Shown: positions 1 to 18,287, counted from the stretch's first letter. The stretch is 64,000 nt of DNA from Trypanosoma brucei (GCA_000002445.1 CP000070.1:64001-128000), one strand, 5' to 3'. Program-made: numbers and translations. The notes: generated by a model from the sequence alone, not told the origin.

Positions 1-1971
1 GAAAGTTATAAAATGCCAACATCCCAACACCTGTTGGTTGCGCACCGCAGCGCGAAATAGTAATTATACCAAAAATATGCTTACCTTTCCCCCCTTACGA
101 TTCCTAATTTAAGAAACAATAATTCCCCCCTCCTCCAACCTGAGTGTGCTATTAATCAAATAAAAACAACAATAACAATAACATGAACATGAACACAATG
201 GAGTTGGTGACTGGTTAAGTAACACTGAGCCGCGTTACAGCCAACTTCGAACATAACAATGTAACAAGAGGCGCCGTATGGAAAGTGCCGTTTGTTGTCT
301 GAAATTACAGCCTAAGGATTGGCGCAGCACACATTACTCATATGATAATCTCACTTTTGCAATTCAGATATTGGGAAATGCAACCTTCCGCAAACCCCAT
401 CATCACGCATTTCCATTTAAAAAGGGGTTTAAACCTGATAAAAAAAAAAAAAGAAAGCAAAGAGAAAATGTTATCCTCCTCCACCCCTGTTGTGTGGAGA
501 CTAAAAAAGCGGACGTTACTGAAAAGCCATTGTTAGTTTCGTGACCAAACACGCATGATTAGAGAACCATTTACGCACCATTACGAACCGTCTCGCTTCA
601 CCGTGCAACAATTAAAGCTGCAAAGATATGAAAAAAAAAAATGAGTTCCAGAATTGCATTGCCACGGCGACGCGATAATGCGATGAAAGATAAATGTCTA
701 TAAAAAAAATATATGACCAAATCGGTATTAAAAATTTTAAAAACAGCGTACTTCATTACATAACATAACACTGCACTACAAAGCAACCCACCACCATAAT
801 GGAGCGAATGCAAAAACACAATGCCCAGTGAAAAAAAAAACGCAAGTGGAAAGACATTCTACAACAGCGACCAAATCATGCATTAAACAAATTCCTTTCC
901 CTCCAATAAAACTCACATTCGGTTAATTACACACCTGGCGCCCACAAGTCAAAATGTGCAATGCGCTAAAGATGTTGTGACTGCAGGATTGTACATCTCA
1001 AATAACATTCTCACAAGTATTGACTCTTCCGGCAGGTCTTCCAACTGAAGGTACGAATAATCAAACGCCGTCAACTCGCAACATTTAAAAGAAAATTATT
1101 TCTCTCCTTTCTTTCAGGGACTTTGAAATTGGAGGTTCTGCACAAATCCTCAATCCTCCGGCAGGTGTAAGCTCCACTTCATTTCAGTGGTCAGATACAT
1201 AACTAAATGAAAGTAAAGTATAACTAAACGACAGAGAGATTAAAGCAAAGGGGAAAACAAGTAACGACACTTACAAACAAGAAACAAGATAGTAAAATAA
1301 GTAAGTGGAAAGAAACTTAGGGAATCTAGAAGAAACATGCAGATGAAATAAAAAGAATATGGAGTCCCAAAACACATCACAACGATAAAAACTGAATACC
1401 CCATGACAATAAAAATGGAAACAATTGTGTGGAAGAAAACACTGACAAAATAAATAAAAATAAAATAACAATATCACTATTTGAAAAAAAAAAAGAATCA
1501 AGGGCAAAACGAGTCAGATAAAATAGCAGATGGGTATAGCCGCTATTTGAACACTTTCACAATAAATCCATCAACAAACGATGGGTAAGATGCGGTGTCT
1601 CAACAATGCAGCGTCTGCACACAGAAATCTCCAGTGTCATGTGCCCACCCGAATGTTTAAAGACGCCACACCAATAGGATAGCATTTAAAAAACAATAAT
1701 AACAGAAAAGATAAATATGTGGGAGACGTATGGTTTAAAAAAATGAGTAAAAAGACTTTTTTGTAGCACTGGTGCGGTACGTAAAAATTTAGTATACCAT
1801 TGAATTAAATAAGAATATAATAATGAAACGACCAGCGAAGAAAGCATAGGGGTGAGAAACGCCGTAAGTGGCCCCTCCCGTTGCAGTAGCGCCCTGTAAA
1901 CACGTGTTTAGCTAACGCCTAACTTCGACCTGTCGACACGGTAAGAGGATTAGGGAAACAGTTGACAGCTT

Positions 1972-3120
1972 TTAAAAATGTGCGGCAGCACTGTGAGAAA
2001 GTGCTGCAAGAAGGATCAGTAATGTGTATCCTCCTATAGATTCTGCATAGCTGCCGTCATTACCAACTTCTGCTTCCTCACCCTCATCGTCACCCAATTC
2101 CTGCACATGATCATCGTCAGAAATTTCCACTTTTCCTTCAGGATCCTTCTTCGGTACTTCCTCAACTTCCGTTCTTTCCGTCTTTTCCTTGTCCTCTGGA
2201 ACCTCCACGTTTCCTTCAGGATCCTTCTTCGGTACTTCCTCAACTTCCGTTCTTTCCGTCTTTTCCTTGTCCTCTGGAACCTCCACGTTTCCTTCAGGAT
2301 CCTTCTTCGGTACTTCCTCAACTTCCGTTCTTTCCGTCTTTTCCTTGTCCTCTGGAACCTCCACGTTTCCCTCAAATTCCTCCCTCGAAATCTCTTGAAC
2401 ATCCGCTTTTTCCGTCTCTGCCGTCCTTTCGGCTTCCTCAGCTGCCTTGTGTGCGTTGCTTTCAGCTGCCCTTGCTGCAACTCTTGCTTCGCTGGCACGC
2501 CGCACAGCAGCCTCTAATTGATCATATTCCGCCCTGAGATCAGCCATACCATCCGTCAAGATTTTGCAGATATCGCCAGTGAAGAACTCACACCCAAATT
2601 CCACAGCCTTTTTCAGCACCCAGGAGTTAACTCCTCTATTTGGGAGACTGCAGCCTCTCGCAATTCGTCTTGCAGTACTGGCGGCACTATTGTCCTCTGC
2701 AACACTTTTCAGATAATCATCAACCGGAGCGGTCTTTCCGGCTGCGAGCAGTGGGGCACGGGCCGCGTATTGCTCCACATCCGACAGGGCCGTCTTGGCG
2801 GCATTCTCCGCGCTCTCTGCTTCCTTTAGGGCAGCGCGAGCGCGTCCGACGGCCTCCTCCACCTTGGGAGTACTCGAAAAGGCATCCTCCGCTCGTCTCA
2901 CGGCATCTTGGCAACCTTCTCTCGCTTTAGAGGCATCCGAGACATTCGCTGCCGCCAACGCTTTGAGGGCCTTCACACCGAAGGGTATTCCATGCAGCGC
3001 TTCTGAAAAGAGACATGCCGCACTTACATGGCTCACTGTGTTTTGAGACCCTTCCTCAATTATGGAGTCGGCGGTGACATACGTAAGTATAGCAAGCAAG
3101 CACAAAAAACGGGCAGTCAT
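1972..3120 (-). CDS. Ala/Glu-rich GPI-anchored surface protein, copy 1, subtype A, with 3 x 26-aa EVPEDKEKTERTEVEEVPKKDPEGNV repeats. BARP/GARP-like, tentative.
   Basis: 382-aa ORF. N-terminal signal peptide MTARFLCLLAILTYVTA|DS. Ala/Glu-rich helical middle. Acidic 78-bp repeats. C-terminus ...SYAESIGGYTLLILLAALSHSAAAHF is hydrophobic and GPI-signal-like. Confidence 0.75.
   Translation of the reverse strand: MTARFLCLLAILTYVTADSIIEEGSQNTVSHVSAACLFSEALHGIPFGVKALKALAAANVSDASKAREGCQDAVRRAEDAFSSTPKVEEAVGRARAALKEAESAENAAKTALSDVEQYAARAPLLAAGKTAPVDDYLKSVAEDNSAASTARRIARGCSLPNRGVNSWVLKKAVEFGCEFFTGDICKILTDGMADLRAEYDQLEAAVRRASEARVAARAAESNAHKAAEEAERTAETEKADVQEISREEFEGNVEVPEDKEKTERTEVEEVPKKDPEGNVEVPEDKEKTERTEVEEVPKKDPEGNVEVPEDKEKTERTEVEEVPKKDPEGKVEISDDDHVQELGDDEGEEAEVGNDGSYAESIGGYTLLILLAALSHSAAAHF
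2140..2380 (-). repeat. In-frame 78-bp tandem repeat (3 copies) inside surface gene copy 1. Copy 2 has 2 copies at about 5300-5460. Copy 5 has 1 copy at about 14840-14920. Copies 3 and 4 have none.
   Basis: Period counted directly: cttcttcggtacttcctcaacttccgttctttccgtcttttccttgtcctctggaacctccacgtttccttcaggatc is 78 nt. The protein sizes step by about 26 aa: 303, 330, 356 and 382. Confidence 0.85.
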
Positions 3121-3394
3121 GATTATCCCGAATTGCTGTAGTGGTAGTTGTTAAAATGAATGTTAAGTCTAAATGCAGGCAACAGTAGGAAAGAGTGGGT
3201 AAATGTTTGTATTAATAATTTCCCCCCTCGTGGAAAGCAGTTGTAACATGGGAGGAGGCATGGATGTTGTTCTTTTTGTGATTTTTAAAATTTTTTGTGT
3301 TCAATTTTCTGAGCATTGCTTTATTGGAAGAGATGACGGGACTTATTGCTTTTTCACAGTTGCCGTCGCTAACGGTAGTTGCGTTTCACTATGG

Positions 3395-4071
3395 TTATTC
3401 TTTCGACTGTCCCTGTTCAGCTATAAGTTCTCGAATGGCGATTGTGCTTCCAGATTTTATACTTGCAGTTTTTAATCGGGAGAGAACGCTTTCCAGTCGC
3501 TCGAAAGGATCATCACTAACTGCAGCCAGAATGCTTTTCAAATAACTCAAGTCGGTTACAAGTTGTTCTACTGCAAGGGCCGCAGCATCGTCGCTATTAA
3601 GTGGGAAACACATTGTAATGTTTTGTCAGGAAAGAACTGAAGAACGGCCTTTACAGCTTCCATCAGTCCATTCATAACTACTTGAAATCGATCATACTTC
3701 ATGATAGATTGCGAATCCTTTAAGAGGTCTTCCACGCGCTCTGCTTCTCGCCGTGCAAATGATTCCAGCACCTTAGGTTGCTCGAATATGTGTGCAAGCT
3801 CAGTTTGAGTATAAAAATTAATTTGCTCTGCAATATCGTCCCGCCTACACAAACTGTTTTTAACGTTTCTTCCGTCCTCAGCACCAACACATACCTTCGG
3901 AGGAGTAGAATCAATTTTAATACTAAGCTGCCTTACTGCCTCAAAGCAGGAAATAAGCTCAACATTCCTCTCCACACACTGCAAAATGGGAGTTAAGCAA
4001 GTGGAAAGACATTCTACAACAGCGATCAAATCATGCATTAAACAAACTCCTTTCCCTCCAATAAAACTCAC
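3395..4071 (-). pseudogene. COG7-like gene 3' fragment, 5'-truncated and carrying a ~620-bp internal deletion (unit 1).
   Basis: ORFs 3568..4071 and 3395..3613 match the C-terminal third of the 784-aa protein at 15933..18287. The deletion junction at about 3613-3620 (cacattgtaatgttttgtcagg) shifts the frame. Confidence 0.8.
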
Positions 4072-5131
4072 ATTCGGTTAATTACACACCTGGCGCCCAC
4101 AAGTCAAAATGTGCAATGCGCTAAAGATGTTGTGACTGCAGGATTGTACATCTCAAATAATATTCTCACAAGTATTGACTCTTCCGGCAGGTCTTCCAAC
4201 TGAAGGTACGAATAATCAAACGCCGTCAACTCGCAACATTTAAAGGAAAATTATTTCTCTCCTTTCCTTCAGAGACTTTGAAATTGGAGGTTCTGCACAA
4301 ATCCTCAATCCTCCGGCAGGTGTAAGCTCCACTTCATTTCAGTGGTCAGATACATAACTAAATGAAAGTAAAGTATAACTAAACGACAGAGAGATTAAAG
4401 CAAAGGGGAAAACAAGCAACGACACTTACAAACAAGAAACAAGATAGTAAAATAAGTAAGTGGAAAGAAACTTAGGGAATCTAGAAGAAACATGCAGATG
4501 AAATAAAAAGAATATGGAGTCCCAAAACACATCGCAACGATAAAAACTGAATACCCCATGACAATAAAAATGGAAACAATTGTGTGGAGGGAAGGGTTAT
4601 AAAAGAAAAAAAATAATAATAATGTTATCGTCTTTTTTTATCAAAAAAAATAAATAAATAAAAATGAAGTGAAGCAGATAAAATAGCAGATGGGTATAGC
4701 CGCTATTTGAACACTTTCACAATAAATCCATCAACAAACGATGGGTAAGATGCGGTGTCTCGACAATGCAGCGTCTGCACACAGAAATCTACAGTGTCAT
4801 GCGCCCACCCGAATGTTTAAAGACGCCACACCAATAGGATAGCATTTAAAAAACAATAATAACAGAAAAGATAAATATGTGGGAGACGTATGGTTCAAAA
4901 AAATGAGTAAAAAGACTTTTTTGTAGCACTGGTGCGGTACGTAAAAATTTAGTATACCATTGAATTAAATAAGAATATAATAATGAAACGACCAGCGAAG
5001 AAAGCATAGGGGTGAGAAACGCCGTAAGTGGCCCCTCCCGTTGCAGTAGCGCCCTGTAAACACGTGTTTAGCTAACGCCTAACTTCGACCTGTCGACACG
5101 GTAAGAGGATTAGGGAAACAGTTGACAGCTT

Positions 5132-6202
5132 TTAAAAATGTGCGGCAGCACTGTGAAAAAGTGCTGCAAGAAGGATCAGTAATGTGTATCCTCCTATAGA
5201 TTCTGCATAGCTGCCGTCATTACCAACTTCTGCTTCCTCACCCTCATCGTCACCCAATTCCTGCACATGATCATCGTCAGAAATTTCCACTTTTCCCTCA
5301 GGATCCTTCTTCGGTACTTCCTCAACTTCCGTTCTTTCCGTCTTTTCCTTGTCCTCTGGAACCTCCACGTTTCCTTCAGGATCCTTCTTCGGCACTTCCT
5401 CAACTTCCGTTCTTCCCGTCTTTTCCTTGTCCTCTGGAACCTCCACGTTTCCCTCAAATTCCTCCCTCGAAATCTCTTGAACATCCGCTTCTTCCGTCTC
5501 TGCCGTCCTTTCGGCTTCCTCAGCTGCCTTGCGTGCGTTGCTTTCAGCTGCCCTTGCTGCAACTCTTGCTTCGCCGGCACGCCGCACAGCAGCCTCTAAT
5601 TGATCATATTCCGCCCTGAGATCAACCATACGCGTCCTCGCGATCCTACATATTTCACCCATGAAAATAGCACATGCGGATTCCACAGCCTGTGTCAGCA
5701 CCCAGGAGTTAACTCCTCTATTTGGGAGACTGCAGCCTCTCGCAATTCGTCTTGCAGTACTGGCGGCACTATTGTCCTCTGCAACACTTTTCAGATAATC
5801 ATCAATCGGAGCGGTCTTTCCGGCTGCGAGCAGTGGGGCACGGGCCGCGTATTGCTCCACATCCGACAGGGCCGTCTTGGCGGCATTCTCCGCGCTCTCT
5901 GCTTCCTTTAGGGCAGCGCGAGCGCGTCCGACGGCCTCCTCCGCTTTGGGATTATTCCAAGAGGCATCCTCCGCTCGTCTCACGGCATCTTGGCAACCTT
6001 CTCTCGCTTTAGAGGCATCCGAGACATTCGCTGCCGCCAACGCTTTGAGGGCCTTCACACCGAAGGGTATTCCATGCAGCGCTTCTGAAAAGAGACATGC
6101 CGCACTTACATGACTCACTGTGTTTTGAGACCCTTCCTCAATTATGGAGTCGGCGGTGACATACGTAAGTATAGCAAGCAAGCACAAAAAACGGGCAGTC
6201 AT
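5132..6202 (-). CDS. Ala/Glu-rich GPI-anchored surface protein, copy 2, subtype A, with 2 repeats.
   Basis: 356-aa ORF, more than 90% identical to copy 1. Same signal peptide and GPI-like tail. Confidence 0.75.
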   Translation of the reverse strand: MTARFLCLLAILTYVTADSIIEEGSQNTVSHVSAACLFSEALHGIPFGVKALKALAAANVSDASKAREGCQDAVRRAEDASWNNPKAEEAVGRARAALKEAESAENAAKTALSDVEQYAARAPLLAAGKTAPIDDYLKSVAEDNSAASTARRIARGCSLPNRGVNSWVLTQAVESACAIFMGEICRIARTRMVDLRAEYDQLEAAVRRAGEARVAARAAESNARKAAEEAERTAETEEADVQEISREEFEGNVEVPEDKEKTGRTEVEEVPKKDPEGNVEVPEDKEKTERTEVEEVPKKDPEGKVEISDDDHVQELGDDEGEEAEVGNDGSYAESIGGYTLLILLAALFHSAAAHF

Positions 6203-6476
6203 GATTATCCCGAGTTGCTGTAGTGGTAGTTGTTAAAATGAATGTTAAGTCTAAATGCAGGCAACAGTAGGAAAGAGTGGGTAAATGTTTGTATTAATAA
6301 TTTCCCCCCTCGTGGAAAGCAGTTGTAACATGGGAGGAGGCATGGATGTTGTTCTTTTTGTGATTTTTAAAATTTTTTGTGTTAAATTTTCTGAGCATTG
6401 CTTTATTGGAAGAGATGACGGGACTTATTGCTTTTTCACAGTTGCCGTCGCTAACGGTAGTTGCGTTTCACTATGG

Positions 6477-7775
6477 TTATTCTTTCGACTGTCCCTGTTC
6501 AGCTATAAGTTCTCGAATGGCGATTGTGCTTCCAGATTTTATACTTGCAGTTTTTAATCGGGAGAGAACGCTTTCCAGTCGCTCGAAAGGATCATCACTA
6601 ACTGCAGCCAGAATGCTTTTCAAATAACTCAAGTCGGTTACAAGTTGTTCTACTGCAAGGGCCGCAGCATCGTCGCTATTAAGTGGGAAACACATTATAA
6701 TGTTGGCCACTTTAGACTCAATAAAGTCCGATACCGCCGTGCGCACAATATCATCTAACCAATATTCCGTTACTTCTTCGAGTAACTCTTCAATGCCGTC
6801 GAACCGTCCCTCGCTGCCACCCCGTAATGATTCGAGTGCTAATGGTATTTCCACAATGGCTTCACCAAAGCCGCGCACCATTTCACTAGGCGCAAGATGT
6901 AATGGCGTGTGTAGCACAGAATTGGAAATCACAGCGCTTCCTCCGTTACTCGACTGTAACCTCCAGAGTGGTTGCGACTCATAACCGTCAGCTGTGGCAA
7001 TAACGGGAGCAATGACAGTTTGTTTTATAGCCTGCTGGCATTCAGCAGCACAAATCACCAGTACATTGTTTAGTGGCCGCCACAGCTGTTCACTTAGTTG
7101 ACTATTGATAGACTCAACCTCAGTTGGACGTAGTCGGCGCACCTCCGCAGATTTGACATAGTCTTCGCACATTTTCTGCGTAGACAGAAGCAATTGTTGA
7201 ACAATTTTGCGTAACGCTGAAAGGCGCTCTAACAACTCCGTCTGGTGCGTGTGAGGTGCGGGTTGAAAAAATGTCAGCGACTGGACGAGTGCCACCTTCC
7301 ATCGGCTCACACAGATCGGTAATGTTTTGTCAGGAAAGAACTGAAGAACGGCCTTTACAGCTTCCATCAGTCCATTCATAACTACTTGAAATCGATCATA
7401 CTTCATGATAGATTGCGAATCCTTTAAGAGGTCTTCCACGCGCTCTGCTTCTCGCCGTGCAAATGATTCCAGCACCTTAGGTTGCTCGAATATGTGTGCA
7501 AGCTCAGTTTGAGTATAAAAATTAATTTGCTCTGCAATATCGTCCCGCCTACACAAACTGTTTTTAACGTTTCTTCCGTCCTCAGCACCAACACATACCT
7601 TCGGAGGAGTAGAATCAATTTTAATACTAAGCTGCCTTACTGCCTCAAAGCAGGAAATAAGCTCAACATTCCTCTCCACACACTGCAAAATGGGAGTTAA
7701 GCAAGTGGAAAGACATTCTACAACAGCGACCAAATCATGCATTAAACAAATTCCTTTCCCTCCAATAAAACTCAC
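6477..7775 (-). pseudogene. COG7-like gene 3' fragment, 5'-truncated but otherwise the intact C-terminal 432 codons (unit 2).
   Basis: The 432-aa ORF is near-identical to residues ~353-784 of the full gene. It has no N-terminal half and begins at the array junction (~7723). Confidence 0.8.
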
Positions 7776-8834
7776 ATTCGGTTAATTACACACCTGGCGC
7801 CCACAAGTCAAAATGTGCAATGCGCTAAAGATGTTGTGACTGCAGGATTGTACATCTCAAATAATATTCTCACAAGTATTGACTCTTCCGGCAGGTTTTC
7901 CAACTGAAGGTACGAATAATCAAACGCCGTCAACTCGCAACATTTAAAAGAAAATTATTTCTCTCCTTTCTTTCAGGGACTTTGAAATTGGAGGTTCTGC
8001 ACAAATCCTCAATCCTCCGGCAGGTGTAAGCTCCACTTCATTTCAGTGGTCAGATACATAACTAAATGAAAGTAAAGTATAACTAAACGACAGAGAGATT
8101 AAAGCAAAGGGGAAAACAAGCAACGACACTTACAAACAAGAAACAAGATAGTAAAATAAGTAAGTGGAAAGAAACTTAGGGAATCTAGAAGAAACATGCA
8201 GATGAAATAAAAAGAATATGGAGTCCCAAAACACATCGCAACGATAAAAACTGAATACCCCATGACAATAAAAATGGAAACAATTGTGTGGAGGGAAGGG
8301 TTATAAAAGAAAAAAAATAATAATAATGTTATCGTCTTTTTTTATCAAAAAAAATAAATAAATAAAAATGAAGTGAAGCAGATAAAATAGCAGATGGGTA
8401 TAGCCGCTATTTGAACACTTTCACAATAAATCCATCAACAAACGATGGGTAAGATGCGGTGTCTCAACAATGCAGCGTCTGCACACAGAAATCTCCAGTG
8501 TCATGTGCCCACCCGAATGTTTAAAGACGCCACACCAATAGGATAGCATTTAAAAAACAATAATAACAGAAAAGATAAATATGTGGGAGACGTATGGTTT
8601 AAAAAAATGAGTAAAAAGACTTTTTTGTAGCACTGGTGCGGTACGTAAAAATTTAGTATACCATTGAATTAAATAAGAATATAATAATGAAACGACCAGC
8701 GAAGAAAGCATAGGGGTGAGAAACGCCGTAAGTGGCCCCTCCCGTTGCAGTAGCGCCCTGTAACACGTGTTTAGCTAACGCCTAACTTCGACCTGTCGAC
8801 ACGGTAAGAGGATTAGGGAAACAGTTGACAGCTT

Positions 8835-9746
8835 TTAAAAATGTGCGGCAGCACTGTGAAAAAGTGCTGCAAGAAGGATCAGTAATGTGTATCCTCCTAT
8901 AGATTCTGCATAGCTGCCGTCATTACCAACTTCTGCTTCCTCACCCTCATCGTCACCCAATTCCTGCACATGATCATCGTCAGAAATTTCCACTTTTCCT
9001 TCAGGATCCTTCTTCGGCACTTCCTTAACTTTCGCTTTTTCCGTCTCTGCCGTCCTTTCGGCTTCCTCAGCTGCCTTGTGTGCGTTGCTTTCAGCTGCCC
9101 TTGCTGCAACTCTTGCTTCGCTGGCACGCCGCACAGCAGCCTCTAATTGATCATATTCCGCCCTGAGATCAGCCATACGCGCCCTCGCAGTGTTGCAGAT
9201 AACTGTCATGAAAACGGCACAACCGGATTCCACAGCCTGTGTCAGTACCCAGGAACTAACTTCAAGTGGGGCATTGCAGTCTCTCGCAATTCGTCTTGCA
9301 GTACTGGCGGCACTATTGTCCTCTGCAACACTTTTCAGATAATCATCAACCAGAGCTACATTGTTGTTCGCGAGCGCTGAGGCATTGGCAGCGTATTGCT
9401 CCACATCCGACAGGGCCGTCTTGGCGGCATTCTCCGCGCTCTCTGCTTCCTTTAGGGCAGCGCGAGCGCGTCCGACGGCCTCCTCCACCTTGGGAGTACT
9501 CGAAAAGGCATCCTCCGCTCGTCTCACGGCATCTTGGCAACCTTCTCTCGCTTTAGAGGCATCCGAGACATTCGCTGCCGCCGACGTCTTGAACACTTTG
9601 ACACTGTTGGGTACTCCATGCAGCGCTTCCGACATGAGACATGCCGCACTTACATGACTCACTGTGTCTTGAAACCCTTCCCCACCTTTGGGACCGGTGG
9701 TGACATACATAAGTATAGCAAGCAAGCACAAAAAACGGGCAGTCAT
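8835..9746 (-). CDS. Ala/Glu-rich GPI-anchored surface protein, copy 3, subtype B, no 78-bp repeat.
   Basis: 303-aa ORF. The N-terminal domain is divergent (TGPKGGEGFQDTV..., GVPNSVKVFKTS, ANASALANNNVALV). Signal peptide and C-terminal half match subtype A. Confidence 0.75.
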   Translation of the reverse strand: MTARFLCLLAILMYVTTGPKGGEGFQDTVSHVSAACLMSEALHGVPNSVKVFKTSAAANVSDASKAREGCQDAVRRAEDAFSSTPKVEEAVGRARAALKEAESAENAAKTALSDVEQYAANASALANNNVALVDDYLKSVAEDNSAASTARRIARDCNAPLEVSSWVLTQAVESGCAVFMTVICNTARARMADLRAEYDQLEAAVRRASEARVAARAAESNAHKAAEEAERTAETEKAKVKEVPKKDPEGKVEISDDDHVQELGDDEGEEAEVGNDGSYAESIGGYTLLILLAALFHSAAAHF

Positions 9747-10020
9747 GATTATCCCGAATTGCTGTAGTGGTAGTTGTTAAAATGAATGTTAAGTCTAAAT
9801 GCAGGCAACAGTAGGAAAGAGTGGGTAAATGTTTGTATTAATAATTTCCCCCCTCGTGGAAAGCAGTTGTAACATGGGAGGAGGCATGGATGTTGTTCTT
9901 TTTGTGATTTTTAAAATTTTTTGTGTTCAATTTTCTGAGCATTGCTTTATTGGAAGAGATGACGGGACTTATTGCTTTTTCACAGTTGCCGTCGCTAACG
10001 GTAGTTGCGTTTCACTATGG

Positions 10021-10693
10021 TTATTCTTTCGACTGTCCCTGTTCAGCTATAAGTTCTCGAATGGCGATTGTGCTTCCAGATTTTATACTTGCACTTTTTA
10101 ATCGGGAGAGAACGCTTTCCAGTCGCTCGAAAGGATCATCACTAACTGCAGCCAGAATGCTTTTCAAATAACTCAAGTCGGTTACAAAATGACAGCGACT
10201 GGACGAGTGCCACCTTCCATCGGCTCACACAGATCGGTAATGTTTTGTCAGGAAAGAACTGAAGAACGGCCTTTACAGCTTCCATCAGTCCATTCATAAC
10301 TACTTGAAATCGATCATACTTCATGATAGATTGCGAATCCTTTAAGAGGTCTTCCACGCGCTCTGCTTCTCGCCGTGCAAATGATTTCAGCACCTTAGGT
10401 TGCTCGAATATGTGTGCAAGCTCAGTTTGAGTATAAAAATTAATTTGCTCTGCAATATCGTCCCGCCTACACAAACTGTTTTTAACGTTTCTTCCGTCCT
10501 CAGCACCAACACATACCTTCGGAGGAGTAGAATCAATTTTAATACTAAGCTGCCTTACTGCCTCAAAGCAGGAAATAAGCTCAACATTCCTCTCCACACA
10601 CTGCAAAATGGGAGTTAAGCAAGTGGAAAGACATTCTACAACAGCGACCAAATCATGCATTAAACAAATTCCTTTCCCTCCAATAAAACTCAC
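10021..10693 (-). pseudogene. COG7-like 3' fragment, 5'-truncated with a ~610-bp internal deletion (unit 3).
   Basis: ORF 10142..10693 ends in the novel tail ...SLSFCNRLELFEKHSGCS. The deletion junction near 10188 is ggttacaa|aatgacagcg. The unit-2 copy is continuous across this point. Confidence 0.75.
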
Positions 10694-11753
10694 ATTCGGT
10701 TAATTACACACCTGGCGCCCACAAGTCAAAATGTGCAATGCGCTAAAGATGTTGTGACTGCAGGATTGTACATCTCAAATAATATTCTCACAAGTATTGA
10801 CTCTTCCGGCAGGTCTTCCAACTGAAGGTACGAATAATCAAACGCCGTCAACTCGCAACATTTAAAAGAAAATTATTTCTCTCCTTTCTTTCAGGGACTT
10901 TGAAATTGGAGGTTCTGCACAAATCCTCAATCCTCCGGCAGGTGTAAGCTCCACTTCATTTCAGTGGTCAGATACATAACTAAATGAAAGTAAAGTATAA
11001 CTAAACGACAGAGAGATTAAAGCAAAGGGGAAAACAAGCAACGACACTTACAAACAAGAAACAAGATAGTAAAATAAGTAAGTGGAAAGAAACTTAGGGA
11101 ATCTAGAAGAAACATGCAGATGAAATAAAAAGAATATGGAGTCCCAAAACACATCGCAACGATAAAAACTGAATACCCCATGACAATAAAAATGGAAACA
11201 ATTGTGTGGAGGGAAGGGTTATAAAAGAAAAAAAATAATAATAATGTTATCGTCTTTTTTTATCAAAAAAAATAAATAAATAAAAATGAAGTGAAGCAGA
11301 TAAAATAGCAGATGGGTATAGCCGCTATTTGAACACTTTCACAATAAATCCATCAACAAACGATGGGTAAGATGCGGTGTCTCAACAATGCAGCGTCTGC
11401 ACACAGAAATCTCCAGTGTCATGTGCCCACCCGAATGTTTAAAGACGCCACACCAATAGGATAGCATTTAAAAAACAATAATAACAGAAAAGATAAATAT
11501 GTGGGAGACGTATGGTTTAAAAAAATGAGTAAAAAGACTTTTTTGTAGCACTGGTGCGGTACGTAAAAATTTAGTATACCATTGAATTAAATAAGAATAT
11601 AATAATGAAACGACCAGCGAAGAAAGCATAGGGGTGAGAAACGCCGTAAGTGGCCCCTCCCGTTGCAGTAGCGCCCTGTAAACACGTGTTTAGCTAACGC
11701 CTAACTTCGACCTGTCGACACGGTAAGAGGATTAGGGAAACAGTTGACAGCTT

Positions 11754-12665
11754 TTAAAAATGTGCGGCAGCACTGTGAGAAAGTGCTGCAAGAAGGATCA
11801 GTAATGTGTATCCTCCTATAGATTCTGCATAGCTGCCGTCATTACCAACTTCTGCTTCCTCACCCTCATCGTCACCCAATTCCTGCACATGATCATCGTC
11901 AGAAATTTCCACTTTTCCTTCAGGATCCTTCTTCGGCACTTCCTTAACTTTCGCTTTTTCCGTCTCTGCCGTCCTTTCGGCTTCCTCAGCTGCCTTGTGT
12001 GCGTTGCTTTCAGCTGCCCTTGCTGCAACTCTTGCTTCGCTGGCACGCCGCACAGCAGCCTCTAATTGATCATATTCCGCCCTGAGATCAGCCATACGCG
12101 TCCTCGCAGTGTTGCAGATAACTGTCATGAAAACGGCACAACCGGATTCCACAGCCTGTGTCAGTACCCAGGAACTAACTTCAAGTGGGGCATTGCAGTC
12201 TCTCGCAATTCGTCTTGCAGTACTGGCGGCACTATTGTCCTCTGCAACACTTTTCAGATAATCATCAACCAGAGCTACATTGTTGTTCGCGAGCGCTGAG
12301 GCATTGGCAGCGTATTGCTCCACATCCGACAGGGCCGTCTTGGCGGCATTCTCCGCGCTCTCTGCTTCCTTTAGGGCAGCGCGAGCGCGTCCGACGGCCT
12401 CCTCCACCTTGGGAGTACTCGAAAAGGCATCCTCCGCTCGTCTCACGGCATCTTGGCAACCTTCTCTCGCTTTAGAGGCATCCAAGACATTCGCTGCCGC
12501 CGACGTCTTGAACACTTTGACACTGTTGGGTACTCCATGCAGCGCTTCCGACATGAGACATGCCGCACTTACATGACTCACTGTGTCTTGAAACCCTTCC
12601 CCACCTTTGGGACCGGTGGTGACATACGTAAGTATAGCAAGCAAGCACAAAAAACGGGCAGTCAT
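11754..12665 (-). CDS. Ala/Glu-rich GPI-anchored surface protein, copy 4, subtype B, nearly identical to copy 3.
   Basis: 303-aa ORF. Only a few substitutions against copy 3 (M13T, S61L, A188T, F296S). Confidence 0.75.
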   Translation of the reverse strand: MTARFLCLLAILTYVTTGPKGGEGFQDTVSHVSAACLMSEALHGVPNSVKVFKTSAAANVLDASKAREGCQDAVRRAEDAFSSTPKVEEAVGRARAALKEAESAENAAKTALSDVEQYAANASALANNNVALVDDYLKSVAEDNSAASTARRIARDCNAPLEVSSWVLTQAVESGCAVFMTVICNTARTRMADLRAEYDQLEAAVRRASEARVAARAAESNAHKAAEEAERTAETEKAKVKEVPKKDPEGKVEISDDDHVQELGDDEGEEAEVGNDGSYAESIGGYTLLILLAALSHSAAAHF

Positions 12666-12939
12666 GATTATCCCGAATTGCTGTAGTGGTAGTTGTTAAA
12701 ATGAATGTTAAGTCTAAATGCAGGCAACAGTAGGAAAGAGTGGGTAAATGTTTGTATTAATAATTTCCCCCCTCGTGGAAAGCAGTTGTAACATGGGAGG
12801 AGGCATGGATGTTGTTCTTTTTGTGATTTTTAAAATTTTTTGTGTTCAATTTTCTGAGCATTGCTTTATTGGAAGAGATGACGGGACTTATTGCTTTTTC
12901 ACAGTTGCCGTCGCTAACGGTAGTTGCGTTTCACTATGG

Positions 12940-13612
12940 TTATTCTTTCGACTGTCCCTGTTCAGCTATAAGTTCTCGAATGGCGATTGTGCTTCCAGAT
13001 TTTATACTTGCAGTTTTTAATCGGGAGAGAACGCTTTCCAGTCGCTCGAAAGGATCATCACTAACTGCAGCCAGAATGCTTTTCAAATAACTCAAGTCGG
13101 TTACAAAATGACAGCGACTGGACGAGTGCCACCTTCCATCGGCTCACACAGATCGGTAATGTTTTGTCAGGAAAGAACTGAAGAACGGCCTTTACAGCTT
13201 CCATCAGTCCATTCATAACTACTTGAAATCGATCATACTTCATGATAGATTGCGAATCCTTTAAGAGGTCTTCCACGCGCTCTGCTTCTCGCCGTGCAAA
13301 TGATTCCAGCACCTTAGGTTGCTCGAATATGTGTGCAAGCTCAGTTTGAGTATAAAAATTAATTTGCTCTGCAATATCGTCCCGCCTACACAAACTGTTT
13401 TTAACGTTTCTTCCGTCCTCAGCACCAACACATACCTTCGGAGGAGTAGAATCAATTTTAATACTAAGCTGCCTTACTGCCTCAAAGCAGGAAATAAGCT
13501 CAACATTCCTCTCCACACACTGCAAAATGGGAGTTAAGCAAGTGGAAAGACATTCTACAACAGCGACCAAATCATGCATTAAACAAATTCCTTTCCCTCC
13601 AATAAAACTCAC
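12940..13612 (-). pseudogene. COG7-like 3' fragment with the same internal deletion as unit 3 (unit 4).
   Basis: ORF 13061..13612 is near-identical to 10142..10693. The deletion junction is near 13107. Confidence 0.75.
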
Positions 13613-14665
13613 ATTCGGTTAATTACACACCTGGCGCCCACAAGTCAAAATGTGCAATGCGCTAAAGATGTTGTGACTGCAGGATTGTACATCTCAAATA
13701 ATATTCTCACAAGTATTGACTCTTCCGGCAGGTTTTCCAACTGAAGGTACGAATAATCAAACGCCGTCAACTCGCAACATTTAAAAGAAAATTATTTCTC
13801 TCCTTTCTTTCAGGGACTTTGAAATTGGAGGTTCTGCACAAATCCTCAATCCTCCGGCAGGTGTAAGCTCCACTTCATTTCAGTGGTCAGATACATAACT
13901 AAATGAAAGTAAAGTATAACTAAACGACAGAGAGATTAAAGCAAAGGGGAAAACAAGCAACGACACTTACAAACAAGAAACAAGATAGTAAAATAAGTAA
14001 GTGGAAAGAAACTTAGGGAATCTAGAAGAAACATGCAGATGAAATAAAAAGAATATGGAGTCCCAAAACACATCGCAACGATAAAAACTGAATACCCCAT
14101 GACAATAAAAATGGAAACAATTGTGTGGAAGAAAACACTGACAAAATAAATAAAAATAAAATAACAATATCACTATTTGAAAAAAAAAAGAATCAAGGGC
14201 AAAACGAGTCAGATAAAATAGCAGATGGGTATAGCCGCTATTTGAACACTTTCACAATAAATCCATCAACAAACGATGGGTAAGATGCGGTGTCTCGACA
14301 ATGCAGCGTCTGCACACAGAAATCTACAGTGTCATGCGCCCACCCGAATGTTTAAAGACGCCACACCAATAGGATAGCATTTAAAAAACAATAATAACAG
14401 AAAAGATAAATATGTGGGAGACGTATGGTTCAAAAAATGAGTAAAAAGACTTTTTTGTAGCACTGGTGCGGTACGTAAAAATTTAGTATACCATTGAATT
14501 AAATAAGAATATAATAATGAAACGACCAGCGAAGAAAGCATAGGGGTGAGAAACGCCGTAAGTGGCCCCTCCCGTTGCAGTAGCGCCCTGTAAACACGTG
14601 TTTAGCTAACGCCTAACTTCGACCTGTCGACACGGTAAGAGGATTAGGGAAACAGTTGACAGCTT

Positions 14666-15658
14666 TTAAAAATGTGCGGCAGCACTGTGAAAAAGTGCTG
14701 CAAGAAGGATCAGTAATGTGTATCCTCCTATAGATTCTGCATAGCTGCCGTCATTACCAACTTCTGCTTCCTCACCCTCATCGTCACCCAATTCCTGCAC
14801 ATGATCATCGTCAGAAATTTCCACTTTTCCTTCAGGATCCTTCTTCGGCACTTCCTCAACTTCCGTTCTTCCCGTCTTTTCCTTGTCCTCTGGAACCTCC
14901 ACGTTTCCCTCAAATTCCTCCCTCGAAATCTCTTGAACATCCGCTTCTTCCGTCTCTGCCGTCCTTTCGGCTTCCTCAGCTGCCTTGCGTGCGTTGCTTT
15001 CAGCTGCCCTTGCTGCAACTCTTGCTTCGCTGGCACGCCGCACAGCAGCCTCTAATTGATCATATTCCGCCCTGAGATCAACCATACGCGTCCTCGCGAT
15101 CCTACATATTTCACCCATGAAAATAGCACATGCGGATTCCACAGCCTGTGTCAGCACCCAGGAGTTAACTCCTCTATTTGGGAGACTGCAGCCTCTCGCA
15201 ATTCGTCTTGCAGTACTGGCGGCACTATTGTCCTCTGCAACACTTTTCAGATAATCATCAATCGGAGCGGTCTTTCCGGCTGCGAGCAGTGGGGCACGGG
15301 CCGCGTATTGCTCCACATCCGACAGGGCCGTCTTGGCGGCATTCTCCGCGCTCTCTGCTTCCTTTAGGGCAGCGCGAGCGCGTCCGACGGCCTCCTCCAC
15401 CTTGGGAGTACTCGAAAAGGCATCCTCCGCTCGTCTCACGGCATCTTGGCAACCTTCTCTCGCTTTAGAGGCATCCGAGACATTCGCTGCCGCCGACGCT
15501 TTGAGGGCCTTCACACCGAAGGGTATTCCATGCAGCGCTTCTGAAAAGAGACATGCCGCACTTACATGACTCACTGTGTTTTGAGACCCTTCCTCAATTA
15601 TGGAGTCGGCGGTGACATACGTAAGTATAGCAAGCAAGCACAAAAAACGGGCAGTCAT
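14666..15658 (-). CDS. Ala/Glu-rich GPI-anchored surface protein, copy 5, subtype A, with 1 repeat.
   Basis: 330-aa ORF. It is the closest copy to the intact COG7-like gene. Confidence 0.75.
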   Translation of the reverse strand: MTARFLCLLAILTYVTADSIIEEGSQNTVSHVSAACLFSEALHGIPFGVKALKASAAANVSDASKAREGCQDAVRRAEDAFSSTPKVEEAVGRARAALKEAESAENAAKTALSDVEQYAARAPLLAAGKTAPIDDYLKSVAEDNSAASTARRIARGCSLPNRGVNSWVLTQAVESACAIFMGEICRIARTRMVDLRAEYDQLEAAVRRASEARVAARAAESNARKAAEEAERTAETEEADVQEISREEFEGNVEVPEDKEKTGRTEVEEVPKKDPEGKVEISDDDHVQELGDDEGEEAEVGNDGSYAESIGGYTLLILLAALFHSAAAHF

Positions 15659-15932
15659 GATTATCCCGAATTGCTGTAGTGGTAGTTGTTAAAATGAATG
15701 TTAAGTCTAAATGCAGGCAACAGTAGGAAAGAGTGGGTAAATGTTTGTATTAATAATTTCCCCCCTCGTGGAAAGCAGTTGTAACATGGGAGGAGGCATG
15801 GATGTTGTTCTTTTTGTGATTTTTAAAATTTTTTGTGTTCAATTTTCTGAGCATTGCTTTATTGGAAGAGATGACGGGACTTATTGCTTTTTCACAGTTG
15901 CCGTCGCTAACGGTAGTTGCGTTTCACTATGG

Positions 15933-18287
15933 TTATTCTTTCGACTGTCCCTGTTCAGCTATAAGTTCTCGAATGGCGATTGTGCTTCCAGATTTTATAC
16001 TTGCAGTTTTTAATCGGGAGAGAACGCTTTCCAGTCGCTCGAAAGGATCATCACTAACTGCAGCCAGAATGCTTTTCAAATAACTCAAGTCGGTTACAAG
16101 TTGTTCTACTGCAAGGGCCGCAGCATCGTCGCTATTAAGTGGGAAACACATTATAATGTTGGCCACTTTAGACTCAATAAAGTCCGATACCGCCGTGCGC
16201 ACAATATCATCTAACCAATATTCCGTTACTTCTTCGAGTAACTCTTCAATGCCGTCGAACCGTCCCTCGCTGCCACCCCGTAATGATTCGAGTGCTAATG
16301 GTATTTCCACAATGGCTTCACCAAAGCCGCGCACCATTTCACTAGGCGCAAGATGTAATGGCGTGTGTAGCACAGAATTGGAAATCACAGCGCTTCCTCC
16401 GTTACTCGACTGTAACCTCCAGAGTGGTTGCGACTCATAACCGTCAGCTGTGGCAATAACGGGAGCAATGACAGTTTGTTTTATAGCCTGCTGGCATTCA
16501 GCAGCACAAATCACCAGTACATTGTTTAGTGGCCGCCACAGCTGTTCACTTAGTTGACTATTGATAGACTCAACCTCAGTTGGACGTAGTCGGCGCACCT
16601 CCGCAGATTTGACATAGTCTTCGCACATTTTCTGCGTAGACAGAAGCAATTGTTGAACAATTTTGCGTAACGCTGAAAGGCGCTCTAACAACTCCGTCTG
16701 GTGCGTGTGAGGTGCGGGTTGAAAAAATGTCAGCGACTGGACGAGTGCCACCTTCCATCGGCTCACACAGATCGGTAATGTTTTGTCAGGAAAGAACTGA
16801 AGAACGGCCTTTACAGCTTCCATCAGTCCATTCATAACTACTTGAAATCGATCATACTTCATGATAGATTGCGAATCCTTTAAGAGGTCTTCCACGCGCT
16901 CTGCTTCTCGCCGTGCAAATGATTCCAGCACCTTAGGTTGCTCGAATATGTGTGCAAGCTCAGTTTGAGTATAAAAATTAATTTGCTCTGCAATATCGTC
17001 CCGCCTACACAAACTGTTTTTAACGTTTCTTCCGTCCTCAGCACCAACACATACCTTCGGAGGAGTAGAATCAATTTTAATACTAAGCTGCCTTACTGCC
17101 TCAAAGCAGGAAATAAGCTCAGGATTCCTCTCCACACACTGCAAAATGGGAGTTAAGCAAGTGGAAAGACATTCTACAATTTCATCTGCCATTAAACGCA
17201 AAACTTTCACGGGTTGCGACTCGGGCCCTTCAGAAATCTCCGCATTATCCGTGATATCGCGATTACCGCTGTAAACATGTGCCAACTGCATTAAATAGTC
17301 TAACTGGTCGGTGAGTGCACATCCTAAGGAAGGTATAAGTTGCGTTTTCAGCACCTCTGCCGCACGCACGGGAGAAATTGGATGCCTTGAAACTTTTGAC
17401 TCAGAGTGATGTAGCAGACAAAACACTTTTTCCTTTTCGGAGGCTATGCTCTCTGCGGAAAATTGCTGAAGAACAGCATCAGCCCTCCCAATAGTATCAA
17501 GTACCTTGAGGAGATGAGCAGCACGGTCTACTACTCTTCGGCGTAACTGTTCCATACATTCGGTCTCCACCACGCGTTGCAGGAGTTGTTCATGCCTCTC
17601 AACTGCTTCCAGCTGCTTTCCACCAAACGTTACCTCTAATTTCTGAAGGTCTGCGAGGTTTTGCCGCACCTCCCTAATAGACACCGCCACTAAGTCTATG
17701 TCCACCTCTGACACCGAAACACGAAGTTTCTCCATAATATCGTCCAATTGCTTCATATTGCTATCAACTTCCGATGCCTTCTTAAGTGTTTCAGAGCAGC
17801 GCATGAGCTTCTTCTGCGTTTTCTTCAGATCATTGAGCTGTGCAACGTATGGTTTGGAGATCATTTCTACCGCTGGTTGCGCCTCCTCTCTTATTTTGCA
17901 AAGTGCCTGTTGAAGTTGTTGAACTTCCGTAACCATACGGCCGACTTCCAGCCCAGTTCGGGGGAGCCGAACGAGCGCCTGTGTGATAGTGTCGTCAACA
18001 GAACTTGCAACCTCCTGTGAGTATGAATGCAATCTGCCGTACAAATTTGTGATGCGCCCTTCCAACTCCGCATCGGTTTCTACCCCATCAGGATTCGCCG
18101 AAGAAATACATTGCAAAGAGGTATTTATCCACTGAATAACGTCAAAGTTCTCACTTGCTAATTCATCTAACGAGAACGCGAACGACGCGGGATCAGTGGA
18201 AGGTGAAGTACCAATCGAAGGGTTTGGATTTGGTACGTCCTGCATTTTTGGGCTTAAAGAAGAAGGAAAGTTAAGGCAGCAGTGCAC
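15933..18287 (-). CDS. Conserved oligomeric Golgi complex subunit 7-like protein. This is the intact parent of the array fragments.
   Basis: 784-aa ORF. The N-terminal FSLDELASENFDVIQWINTSL resembles the COG7 N-terminal motif (LADDFDVKEWINAAF, recalled from memory). The protein is long and helical. A polypyrimidine tract on the coding strand lies just upstream of the ATG (revcomp of aaagaagaaggaaag at about 18250-18265). Confidence 0.5.
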   Translation of the reverse strand: MHCCLNFPSSLSPKMQDVPNPNPSIGTSPSTDPASFAFSLDELASENFDVIQWINTSLQCISSANPDGVETDAELEGRITNLYGRLHSYSQEVASSVDDTITQALVRLPRTGLEVGRMVTEVQQLQQALCKIREEAQPAVEMISKPYVAQLNDLKKTQKKLMRCSETLKKASEVDSNMKQLDDIMEKLRVSVSEVDIDLVAVSIREVRQNLADLQKLEVTFGGKQLEAVERHEQLLQRVVETECMEQLRRRVVDRAAHLLKVLDTIGRADAVLQQFSAESIASEKEKVFCLLHHSESKVSRHPISPVRAAEVLKTQLIPSLGCALTDQLDYLMQLAHVYSGNRDITDNAEISEGPESQPVKVLRLMADEIVECLSTCLTPILQCVERNPELISCFEAVRQLSIKIDSTPPKVCVGAEDGRNVKNSLCRRDDIAEQINFYTQTELAHIFEQPKVLESFARREAERVEDLLKDSQSIMKYDRFQVVMNGLMEAVKAVLQFFPDKTLPICVSRWKVALVQSLTFFQPAPHTHQTELLERLSALRKIVQQLLLSTQKMCEDYVKSAEVRRLRPTEVESINSQLSEQLWRPLNNVLVICAAECQQAIKQTVIAPVIATADGYESQPLWRLQSSNGGSAVISNSVLHTPLHLAPSEMVRGFGEAIVEIPLALESLRGGSEGRFDGIEELLEEVTEYWLDDIVRTAVSDFIESKVANIIMCFPLNSDDAAALAVEQLVTDLSYLKSILAAVSDDPFERLESVLSRLKTASIKSGSTIAIRELIAEQGQSKE

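What the first reader, a model, noticed from the sequence alone, without database searches (positions are those of the whole stretch)
845..18287. Surface-protein tandem array built by duplication across a gene boundary, leaving serial COG7-like pseudogene fragments
Each unit carries the 3' part of the upstream COG7-like gene as well as a surface-protein gene. The intact parent (15933-18287) survives only beside the last unit. All fragments share the same 5' breakpoint, ...gacattctacaa|cagcgacc, at about 4020, 7723, 10641 and 13560. In the parent the same sequence runs straight on, ...gacattctacaatttcatctgcc, at about 17179. So one original duplication breakpoint was propagated by unequal crossing-over. 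In trypanosomes such fragments would still be transcribed within the polycistron, and each copy supplies the 5' flank and probable splice-acceptor region of the following surface gene.
Basis: seen in the sequence. Interest (0 to 1): 0.7.

Follow-up and report, generated by a model that had tools for sequence, protein, structure and literature searches.

The report
MISP array spaced by COG7 fragments
This is the published five-gene MISP surface-protein array on Trypanosoma brucei chromosome 7; its repeat unit starts inside the upstream Golgi gene COG7, so a headless COG7 copy sits before four of the five MISP genes, which is a tidy but ordinary case of partial-gene tandem duplication.

Summary
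The window matches T. b. brucei TREU927 chromosome 7 (Tb927.7.360-.450). Five head-to-tail units of 2.9-3.7 kb lie on the minus strand. Each holds the 3' part of COG7 from codon 356, a 274-nt spacer, a MISP gene and a 1.1-kb 3' flank.

All four internal junctions are the same. A fifth copy of the junction closes the array at 842-864, keeping only 23 nt of COG7.

- Three fragments carry two independent frameshifting deletions of 622 and 626 nt.
- The junction supplies an in-frame ATG, and the fragments are annotated genes (Tb927.7.370/390/410/430).
- Fragments and spacer are 99.6-100% identical across units, while MISP N-terminal domains differ at dS about 0.12. This indicates gene conversion rather than decay.
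- The likely MISP splice acceptor lies after the COG7 stop codon, not in COG7-derived sequence.

The junction is shared with T. b. gambiense and T. equiperdum. T. congolense has intact COG7 followed by a single MISP. Published RNA-seq shows two fragments rising about 12-fold in salivary glands, as MISP does.

The array is already in the literature, but its spacers are called "unrelated". Interest is low to moderate.

The parts
842..17179 (-). Whole tandem array: five units (U1 865-4019, U2 4020-7723, U3 7724-10641, U4 10642-13560, U5 13561-17179) plus a terminal 23-nt partial unit at 842-864
15933..18245 (-). Intact parent COG7 gene (Tb927.7.450, 770 aa from the ATG at 18245). The mechanical ORF reaches a GTG at 18287
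   Evidence: Pfam COG7 PF10191 at 9e-19. Exact match to AAZ12110. Orthologues of about 50% identity across Trypanosoma
17157..17179 (-). 23-mer TTGTAGAATGTCTTTCCACTTGC in the parent. This is the first sequence shared with the units; the proximal breakpoint lies after nt 1066 of the CDS (codon 356)
13538..13580 (-). Junction U5/U4: MISP 3' flank ...ATGCATGATTTGGTCGCTG joined to TTGTAGAATG... of COG7. The ATG at 13579 opens the chimeric ORF MHDLVAV|VECLST. The same junction occurs at 10619-10661 and 7701-7743, and at 3997-4039 with one mismatch
842..872 (-). Distal end of the array: a fifth junction copy followed by only 23 nt of COG7, then unique flank (gttttttttttcactggg...)
   Evidence: Also conserved in T. 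b. gambiense and T. equiperdum
13061..13579 (-). COG7 fragment Tb927.7.430 (172 aa), with the 626-nt frameshifting deletion between 13107 and 13106
10142..10660 (-). COG7 fragment Tb927.7.410 (172 aa), with the same 626-nt deletion between 10188 and 10187
6477..7742 (-). COG7 fragment Tb927.7.390 (421 aa): the complete C-terminal half through the native stop codon, 99.8% identical to the parent
3568..4038 (-). COG7 fragment Tb927.7.370 (156 aa), with an independent 622-nt deletion between 3615 and 3614 flanked in the parent by a 7-nt microhomology AACATTA
   Evidence: The same deletion is on an independent read assembly, ERR034315
16100..16774 (-). Zone of the parent COG7 that is missing from the fragments: 16153-16774 in U1, 16100-16725 in U3 and U4
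14666..15658 (-). MISP440 (330 aa, one 26-aa repeat)
   Evidence: PMC10089363
11754..12665 (-). MISP420 (303 aa, MISP-B, no repeat)
8835..9746 (-). MISP400 (303 aa, MISP-B, no repeat)
5132..6202 (-). MISP380 (356 aa, two 26-aa repeats; 78-nt repeat at 5286-5456)
1972..3120 (-). MISP360 (382 aa, three 26-aa repeats; 78-nt repeat at 2126-2374)
   Evidence: PDB 5VTL match at 1.4e-123; Pfam GARP
15659..15932 (-). 274-nt spacer between the COG7 stop codon and the MISP ATG. It differs at 0-2 positions between units. It holds the candidate polypyrimidine tract (15737-15725) and AG (about 15707) for MISP trans-splicing
   Evidence: signal assignment is inferred
13561..14665 (-). 1.1-kb MISP 3' flank inside the unit. 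It includes pyrimidine-rich tracts (14192-14179, 13953-13938) that could direct MISP polyadenylation and trans-splicing of the following fragment, and an approximately 85-nt two-version cassette at about 14209-14130

Best explanation
The region is the MISP (Fam50 subfamily iv) tandem array of T. brucei chromosome 7.

Origin. In the ancestor, COG7 was followed by a single MISP gene, as T. congolense still shows. Before the T. brucei subspecies split, one segmental duplication copied a block. The block ran from codon 356 of COG7, through the spacer and MISP, to about 1.1 kb past the MISP stop codon. This created the novel joint ...GGTCGCTG|TTGTAGAATG....

Expansion. Unequal crossing-over or gene conversion between units then expanded and reshuffled the array to five units.

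Consequences:
- Every MISP copy keeps its native upstream spacer, which holds the probable splice acceptor.
- Every unit except the first begins with a headless COG7 copy.
- By chance the joint supplies an in-frame ATG, so the fragments are called as genes (Tb927.7.370/390/410/430).
- Later events include two independent frameshifting deletions in the fragments. At least the 622-nt one is flanked by a 7-nt microhomology, typical of microhomology-mediated joining.
- The number of 78-nt repeats in MISP changed between copies.
- An approximately 85-nt cassette was swapped in the 3' flank.
- Continuing gene conversion keeps the COG7-derived and spacer DNA almost identical to the parent.

Function (inferred). 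The benefit is MISP dosage and isoform diversity in a genome that lacks gene-specific promoters. The COG7 fragments are hitch-hiking passengers. They are transcribed within the polycistron and appear in RNA in step with MISP.

Status of each step. Shown: the anatomy, the shared junction, the comparative states and the homogenisation. Inferred: the recombination mechanism, the RNA-processing sites and the lack of fragment function.
For: Identity of the genes:
- Exact matches to TREU927 proteins AAZ12102/04/06/08/10.
- PDB 5VTL (MISP360) at 1.4e-123.
- Pfam GARP and COG7.
- Five tandem MISP paralogues on chromosome 7 are described in PMC10089363. The array is listed as 50bi, with a significant recombination test, in PMC2854126.

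Anatomy:
- Unit alignment and deletions.
- Junctions.
- The N-terminal half of COG7 is present only once.

Age and polarity:
- The same junction, the same terminal 23-mer and the same 626-nt deletion joint occur in T. b. gambiense and T. b. equiperdum.
- T. congolense has COG7 followed by one GARP-family gene with 35% identity to MISP, and no COG7 fragment in the next 1 kb. A single-copy orthologue is also stated in PMC3605285.
- T. theileri has COG7 without MISP.

Homogenisation:
- COG7-derived parts differ at 0-3 of 405 positions (5' segment) and 0-1 of 167 positions (3' end). The spacer differs at 0-2 of 274.
- By contrast, the MISP N-terminal domain differs at 30-79 of 709 positions, with dS about 0.12 and dN/dS about 0.9 between MISP-A and MISP-B.
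- T. b. gambiense-specific variants are shared by its parent and its fragment. The gambiense parent also carries the fragment-type GT at 17123/17122.

Mosaicism: the 3'-flank cassette groups units as {U1,U5} against {U2,U3,U4}, whereas the coding sequence groups them as {U1,U2,U5} against {U3,U4}.

RNA: Tb927.7.410 and .430 rise from 2.1-2.4 to 26-31 RPKM (about 12-13-fold) between blood and salivary-gland parasites. MISP360/380/440 rise 12.6-12.9-fold (Table S4 of PMC3998935).
Against: - A simple one-step tandem duplication predicts no COG7 sequence at the distal end. The 23-nt terminal copy needs either an improbable pre-existing 23-nt homology or an extra event, such as a truncated sixth unit or a short templated synthesis during break repair. 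I could not tell which.
- The near-identity of the fragments to the parent could also reflect selection on the fragment ORFs. With 0-3 substitutions, dN/dS cannot be tested.
- RNA-seq read assignment among near-identical copies is ambiguous.
- The two-unit T. b. gambiense array may be an assembly collapse.
- No splice-leader or poly(A) mapping was available, so the processing sites are guesses from sequence.
Confidence: 0.88

Rival explanations
1. The fragments are functional genes in their own right. They would encode truncated COG7 C-terminal proteins, or RNAs, kept by selection and expressed with MISP in salivary-gland stages.
For: - The ORFs are open and start at a conserved in-frame ATG in three subspecies.
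- They are 99.6-100% identical to the parent.
- Two of them are detected by RNA-seq and regulated like MISP.
Against: - Three of the four copies in TREU927, and all in the IVM-t1 assembly, carry frameshifting deletions that remove about 210 conserved codons. The two deletions are independent.
- The non-coding spacer is conserved just as well (0-2 of 274), so gene conversion explains the identity without selection.
- The fragments lack the Pfam-recognised N-terminal COG7 region. The 432-aa mechanical ORF of the complete fragment gives no Pfam hit.
Confidence: 0.07
2. The fragments are functional parts of the MISP expression unit rather than passengers. The COG7-derived stretch would serve as an extended 3' UTR of the preceding MISP mRNA, or as a processing spacer that sets MISP polyadenylation and trans-splicing. 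It would be retained for that reason.
For: - Fragment RNA shows the same fold-change as MISP, at about 8-10% of its level. This is unexpected for an independent mRNA ending in the housekeeping COG7 3' UTR.
- Both independent deletions spared the first 405-454 nt and the last 167-220 nt of the fragment.
- This part of the unit is the most strongly homogenised.
Against: - Candidate polypyrimidine/AG signals exist both in the MISP 3' flank and in the spacer, so no COG7-derived sequence is needed.
- The first MISP in the array (MISP440) lies behind the intact gene, and the last one (MISP360) is followed by unique flank, yet both are regulated like the others.
- About 620 nt of the fragment are clearly dispensable.
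Confidence: 0.15
3. The repeat is an assembly artefact: a mis-joined or over-expanded repeat in the reference.
For: - Copy number differs between assemblies, with 5, 2 and 5 units.
- Draft assemblies often mis-handle arrays.
Against: - The same junction is found in three independently produced assemblies and on a Logan read assembly.
- The units are distinguishable by MISP isoform, deletion type and 3' cassette.
- RT-PCR in PMC10089363 resolves size classes of paralogue transcripts 78 bp apart.
Confidence: 0.01
4. The common 'breakpoint' is not a duplication breakpoint. It would be the edge of a recent gene-conversion tract from the parent over older, larger, decayed COG7 copies.
For: Short strings such as GTTTAATG occur on both sides just upstream of the joint (seen).
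Against: - Local alignment of the 1.1-kb flank against the COG7 5' part scores no better than shuffled sequence. 89 of 100 shuffles of the whole flank, and 75 of 500 shuffles of the last 120 nt, reach the observed score.
- The region left of 842 has no similarity to the unit.
Confidence: 0.02

Closest known systems
MISP / Fam50 subfamily iv gene array of T. brucei chromosome 7 (Tb927.7.360-.440): Casas-Sanchez et al. 2023, PMC10089363; Jackson et al. 2013, PMC3605285; array 50bi in Jackson et al. 2010, PMC2854126
   Same: It is this locus. It has five paralogues, split into MISP-A (1-3 repeats of 26 aa) and MISP-B (none), and a single-copy orthologue in T. congolense. Recombination within the array is documented.
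   Different: The 2023 paper calls the intervening genes 'unrelated genes encoding hypothetical proteins'. Here they are shown to be 3' copies of the adjacent COG7 with one shared breakpoint. UniRef already auto-names them COG7. I found no description of the unit boundary, the deletions or the terminal 23-mer in the papers I could search.
Partial and chimeric gene duplicates made by tandem segmental duplication with a breakpoint inside a gene (general phenomenon, from my own knowledge of work in nematodes, flies and mammals)
   Same: The duplicate lacks the 5' part of the gene. It gains a few new N-terminal codons from foreign flank, and it accumulates disabling deletions.
   Different: Transcription does not need a captured promoter because trypanosome genes are transcribed polycistronically. 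The partial copy is multiplied four-fold as a passenger of an array and is kept homogenised with its parent.
T. brucei tandem gene arrays evolving in concert (Jackson 2007, PMC1855330)
   Same: Head-to-tail units, gene conversion and unequal exchange, sequence mosaics, copy-number differences between subspecies, and the dosage rationale under polycistronic transcription.
   Different: One end of the unit lies inside a neighbouring single-copy housekeeping gene. The array therefore remains in recombinational contact with that gene.

Membership tests
MISP (Fam50 subfamily iv; Pfam GARP PF16731) | N-terminal triple-helical-bundle domain homologous to the solved MISP360 structure | tested here: met
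   PDB 5VTL at 1.4e-123 over residues 26-234. Pfam GARP at 5.8e-51 and 1.1e-44, well above the cut-off.
MISP (Fam50 subfamily iv; Pfam GARP PF16731) | Zero to three 26-residue charged C-terminal repeats, an N-terminal signal peptide and a hydrophobic GPI-signal tail | tested here: met
   The translations show 3, 2, 0, 0 and 1 repeats and a shared hydrophobic C-terminus. 78-nt tandem repeats are found. The repeat motif matches the one printed in PMC10089363. Signal peptide and GPI signal were judged by eye only.
COG7 (conserved oligomeric Golgi complex subunit 7, PF10191): parent gene | Pfam COG7 domain above the gathering score, and full-length orthology across the genus | tested here: met
   67.7 bits against a cut-off of 33.9. 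Orthologues of 750-780 aa at 46-53% identity in eight Trypanosoma species.
COG7: the four fragments | Presence of the N-terminal region that Pfam recognises as COG7 | tested here: not met
   The fragments begin at codon 356. The 432-aa mechanical ORF of the complete fragment (Tb927.7.390) gives no Pfam hit. They are copies of part of COG7, not COG7 genes.
Partial-duplicate pseudogene | Derived from a parent gene, lacks part of it, and carries disabling lesions | tested here: met
   All four lack the 5' 1066 nt. Three have frameshifting deletions of 622 or 626 nt. Tb927.7.390 has no lesion other than the truncation.
Partial-duplicate pseudogene | No protein product or function | not testable with these tools
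   RNA is detected for two fragments. No proteomic data were examined.
Tandem array shaped by unequal crossing-over and gene conversion | Identical unit junctions, copy-number variation between relatives, mosaic units and concerted evolution | tested here: met
   Junctions. Five, two and five units in three assemblies. Discordant groupings of coding sequence, 3' cassette and deletion type. Subspecies-specific variants shared by parent and fragment. Published PHI test p<0.001.

The most novel reading that the evidence does not exclude
The COG7-derived spacers are not inert. Because they stay in recombinational contact with the single functional COG7, the array could overwrite the parent with a deleted copy, as the T. 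b. equiperdum IVM-t1 assembly suggests. There, every unit including the 5'-complete gene carries the 626-nt deletion, leaving only a 521-aa COG7. In addition, the spacers may be carried on MISP transcripts and contribute to their salivary-gland-specific regulation.
Probability: 0.2. Interest if true: 0.45.

Novelty: new member of a known kind. Interest (0 to 1): 0.25.

Why it matters
- It corrects a detail of the published description of a candidate transmission-blocking antigen locus. The 'unrelated hypothetical genes' between MISP genes are headless copies of the neighbouring COG7.
- It explains why the upstream spacer is nearly identical between paralogues.
- Four gene models (Tb927.7.370/390/410/430) should be treated as partial duplicates in expression, RNAi and proteomic analyses. 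Reads or RNAi triggers for COG7 (Tb927.7.450) will cross-map to them.
- It gives a clean example of how an array boundary inside a housekeeping gene exposes that gene to conversion by its own damaged copies.
- None of this changes current understanding of trypanosome genome evolution.

Tried and rejected
- Hidden homology upstream of the breakpoint. I aligned the MISP 3' flank against the COG7 5' part. The score was no better than shuffles, so the idea is rejected.
- Similarity of the unique left flank (1-841) to any part of the unit. A word-7 blastn found only the 23-mer and junction. The distal end is therefore not a recognisable decayed unit.
- Polarising the parent/fragment difference at 17123/17122 (P versus V) with outgroups. 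The site is variable in other species (A, Q, E), so it is uninformative.
- dN/dS on the fragments. There are too few substitutions (0-3) to be meaningful.
- Look-ups of the TREU927 proteins P0017 and P0018 to find further assemblies. Neither is on record.
- tRNA scan found none.
- I did not use the promoter/terminator scan because bacterial consensus signals do not apply to trypanosomes.
- Structure prediction and the large protein searches beyond one call were not needed.
Full report
**What the region is**

All sizeable ORFs in 1-22,000 lie on the minus strand.

- The five alanine-rich ORFs at 1972-3120, 5132-6202, 8835-9746, 11754-12665 and 14666-15658 match the solved structure of T. brucei MISP360. 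PDB 5VTL scores 1.4e-123, and Pfam GARP also hits.
- The 784-aa mechanical ORF at 15933-18287 carries the Pfam COG7 domain. It has full-length orthologues of about 50% identity across Trypanosoma.
- Exact-sequence look-ups tie the window to T. b. brucei TREU927 chromosome 7. AAZ12102, AAZ12104, AAZ12106, AAZ12108 and AAZ12110 correspond to Tb927.7.370.390.410.430 and .450, and all translate exactly from the window.
- The MISP array (Tb927.7.360/380/400/420/440) is published (PMC10089363). It is listed as tandem array 50bi, with significant evidence of recombination (PMC2854126). It has a single-copy orthologue in T. congolense (PMC3605285).

**Checking the observation**

Self-alignment gives five head-to-tail units:

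| Unit | Window coordinates | Length (nt) |
|---|---|---|
| U1 | 865-4019 | 3155 |
| U2 | 4020-7723 | 3704 |
| U3 | 7724-10641 | 2918 |
| U4 | 10642-13560 | 2919 |
| U5 | 13561-17179 | 3619 |

- Read on the transcribed strand, a unit has four parts: the COG7 3' part from codon 356, a 274-nt spacer, MISP, and a 1.1-kb 3' flank.
- The quoted joint is present exactly at three unit boundaries and with one mismatch at the fourth. The parent reads straight through at 17168-17190.
- The N-terminal half of COG7 occurs once in the window. The C-terminal half occurs five times.

- *A fifth copy of the joint.* It lies at 853-872. After it only 23 nt of COG7 (TTGTAGAATGTCTTTCCACTTGC, 842-864) remain before unique sequence begins. 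The array thus ends with a 23-nt partial unit.
- *The fragments differ from each other.* The U2 fragment (Tb927.7.390) runs to the native stop codon. The U1 fragment has a 622-nt deletion flanked in the parent by AACATTA on both sides. U3 and U4 share a different 626-nt deletion. Both deletions shift the frame.
- *A new start codon.* The MISP-flank side of the joint supplies an in-frame ATG (ATGCATGATTTGGTCGCTG|TTGTAGAA, read as MHDLVAV|VE...). That is why the fragments are annotated as genes of 156, 421, 172 and 172 aa.

**Comparative evidence**

- T. b. gambiense DAL972 has the intact COG7, two MISP genes and one fragment. It shows the same joint, the same 626-nt deletion joint and the same terminal 23-mer. 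The array may be collapsed in that draft assembly.
- The T. b. equiperdum IVM-t1 assembly has five units with the same joint and the same end.
- In T. congolense IL3000, an intact COG7 is followed directly by a single GARP-family gene that is 35% identical to MISP. No COG7-like sequence occurs in the next 1 kb.
- In T. theileri, COG7 closes its gene cluster and no MISP follows.
- The duplication across the COG7 boundary therefore arose once. It happened after the split from T. congolense and before the T. brucei subspecies diverged.

**Is the breakpoint real?**

I tested whether the 'breakpoint' could be only the edge of a conversion tract over an older, larger copy. The MISP 3' flank shows no similarity to the COG7 5' half beyond what shuffled sequence gives. 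The breakpoint is real.

**Evolution within the array**

| Segment | Differences between units |
|---|---|
| COG7-derived, 5' part | 0-3 of 405 |
| COG7-derived, 3' end | 0-1 of 167 |
| Spacer | 0-2 of 274 |
| MISP N-terminal domain | 30-79 of 709 (8/709 and 3/706 for the closest pairs, U2-U5 and U3-U4) |

- Between MISP-A and MISP-B, dS is about 0.12 and dN/dS about 0.9.
- T. b. gambiense-specific variants are shared by the gambiense parent and its fragment. The gambiense parent also carries the fragment-type bases at 17123/17122.
- The groupings of units disagree with each other:
  - The coding sequence groups {360, 380, 440} against {400, 420}.
  - An approximately 85-nt replacement cassette in the 3' flank groups {360, 440} against {380, 400, 420}.
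  - The deletion types group {370}, {410, 430} and undeleted {390, parent}.
- These are the marks of unequal exchange and gene conversion. The fragments are being homogenised with the parent rather than decaying freely.

**RNA**

- The candidate polypyrimidine tract and AG for MISP trans-splicing (15737-15725 and about 15707) lie in the spacer, downstream of the COG7 stop codon. Pyrimidine-rich tracts in the MISP 3' flank could serve the following fragment. These assignments are inferred from sequence only.
- Published RNA-seq (Table S4 of PMC3998935) lists Tb927.7.410 and .430 among the genes more than 5-fold higher in salivary-gland parasites than in blood forms.
  - They rise from 2.1-2.4 to 26-31 RPKM, which is 12.2- and 12.9-fold.
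  - MISP360, 380 and 440 rise 12.6-12.9-fold in the same table.
- The fragments are therefore represented in RNA and track MISP, at roughly a tenth of its level.
- An mRNA ending in the housekeeping COG7 3' UTR would not be expected to behave this way. Some fragment signal may come from 3'-extended MISP transcripts or unprocessed precursors.
- Read assignment among near-identical copies is a caveat.

**Mechanism and open point**

- The best-supported account is as follows:
  - A single segmental duplication occurred, with one end in COG7.
  - Unequal recombination then amplified it.
  - Selection acted on MISP dosage and isoform variety, in a genome that relies on copy number rather than promoters. 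That rationale is given in PMC1855330.
  - The COG7 fragments are passengers.
- The terminal 23-mer is not explained by a simple one-step duplication. A chance 23-nt homology is very unlikely.
- A truncated sixth unit, or a short templated synthesis during repair of a break at the array end, would account for it. The data do not discriminate between these.

**Verdict**

However, the locus is a known array and the phenomenon, partial-gene tandem duplication, is a known kind.

The new content is modest:
- It defines the unit boundary, the deletions and the homogenisation.
- It shows that the published label 'unrelated genes' is inaccurate. UniRef already auto-names the fragments COG7.

The most interesting by-product is the T. 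b. equiperdum assembly, in which even the 5'-complete COG7 carries the 626-nt deletion. That needs checking against reads.

Noticed in passing
L003:52-1617 and L003:1560, 4551, 7549, 10462, 13377 (T. b. equiperdum IVM-t1, GCA_003543875.1): In this assembly all five units carry the 626-nt deletion joint, including the one with the COG7 5' half. The only 5'-complete COG7 is therefore a 521-aa truncation that lacks a C-terminal region highly conserved across Trypanosoma. No annotated protein from this assembly contains that region. A contig from T. equiperdum OVI (L008) keeps it. This is either a real fragment-to-parent transfer or an assembly collapse.
   Followed up: partly
L003:4132-4160: One T. 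equiperdum fragment has three clustered substitutions just after the 23-mer (TTTTGCAGTGTG becomes TTTTTCACTGGG). They create a 12-mer identical to the unique flank that follows the 23-mer at the distal end of the array. This looks like a short templated patch but is unexplained, and it comes from a single PacBio assembly.
   Followed up: no
window 14130-14209, with equivalents in the other four units: An approximately 85-nt non-homologous replacement cassette lies about 460-535 nt after the MISP stop codon. It exists in two versions, one after MISP360 and MISP440 and the other after MISP380, 400 and 420. PMC10089363 reports >99.7% conservation of UTR and intergenic sequences and is puzzled by unequal paralogue expression. 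This cassette is a candidate difference.
   Followed up: partly
window 31526-33004, inside ORF 29676-34391 (-): Nineteen tandem copies of a 78-nt unit (97% matches) encode 26-aa repeats in a 1571-aa protein with no Pfam hit. The period is the same as the MISP repeat, but the sequence is unrelated.
   Followed up: no
L006 (T. theileri) compared with L004 (T. b. gambiense): Downstream of COG7 the gene order and orientation differ. The RRM and GST-like genes are convergent with COG7 in T. theileri but co-directional in T. brucei. The 3' side of COG7 is therefore a synteny break where the MISP gene sits.
   Followed up: no
L007 (Logan assembly of run ERR034315): An independent short-read assembly carries the array joint together with the 622-nt (Tb927.7.370-type) deletion, at 99% identity to the window. 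That deletion is therefore not peculiar to the reference assembly.
   Followed up: partly
window 17122-17123: The parent COG7 of TREU927 and of T. equiperdum has CC here (Pro). All fragments, and the T. b. gambiense parent, have GT (Val). This suggests fragment-to-parent conversion in gambiense, or the reverse in the other two. Outgroups do not polarise it.
   Followed up: partly
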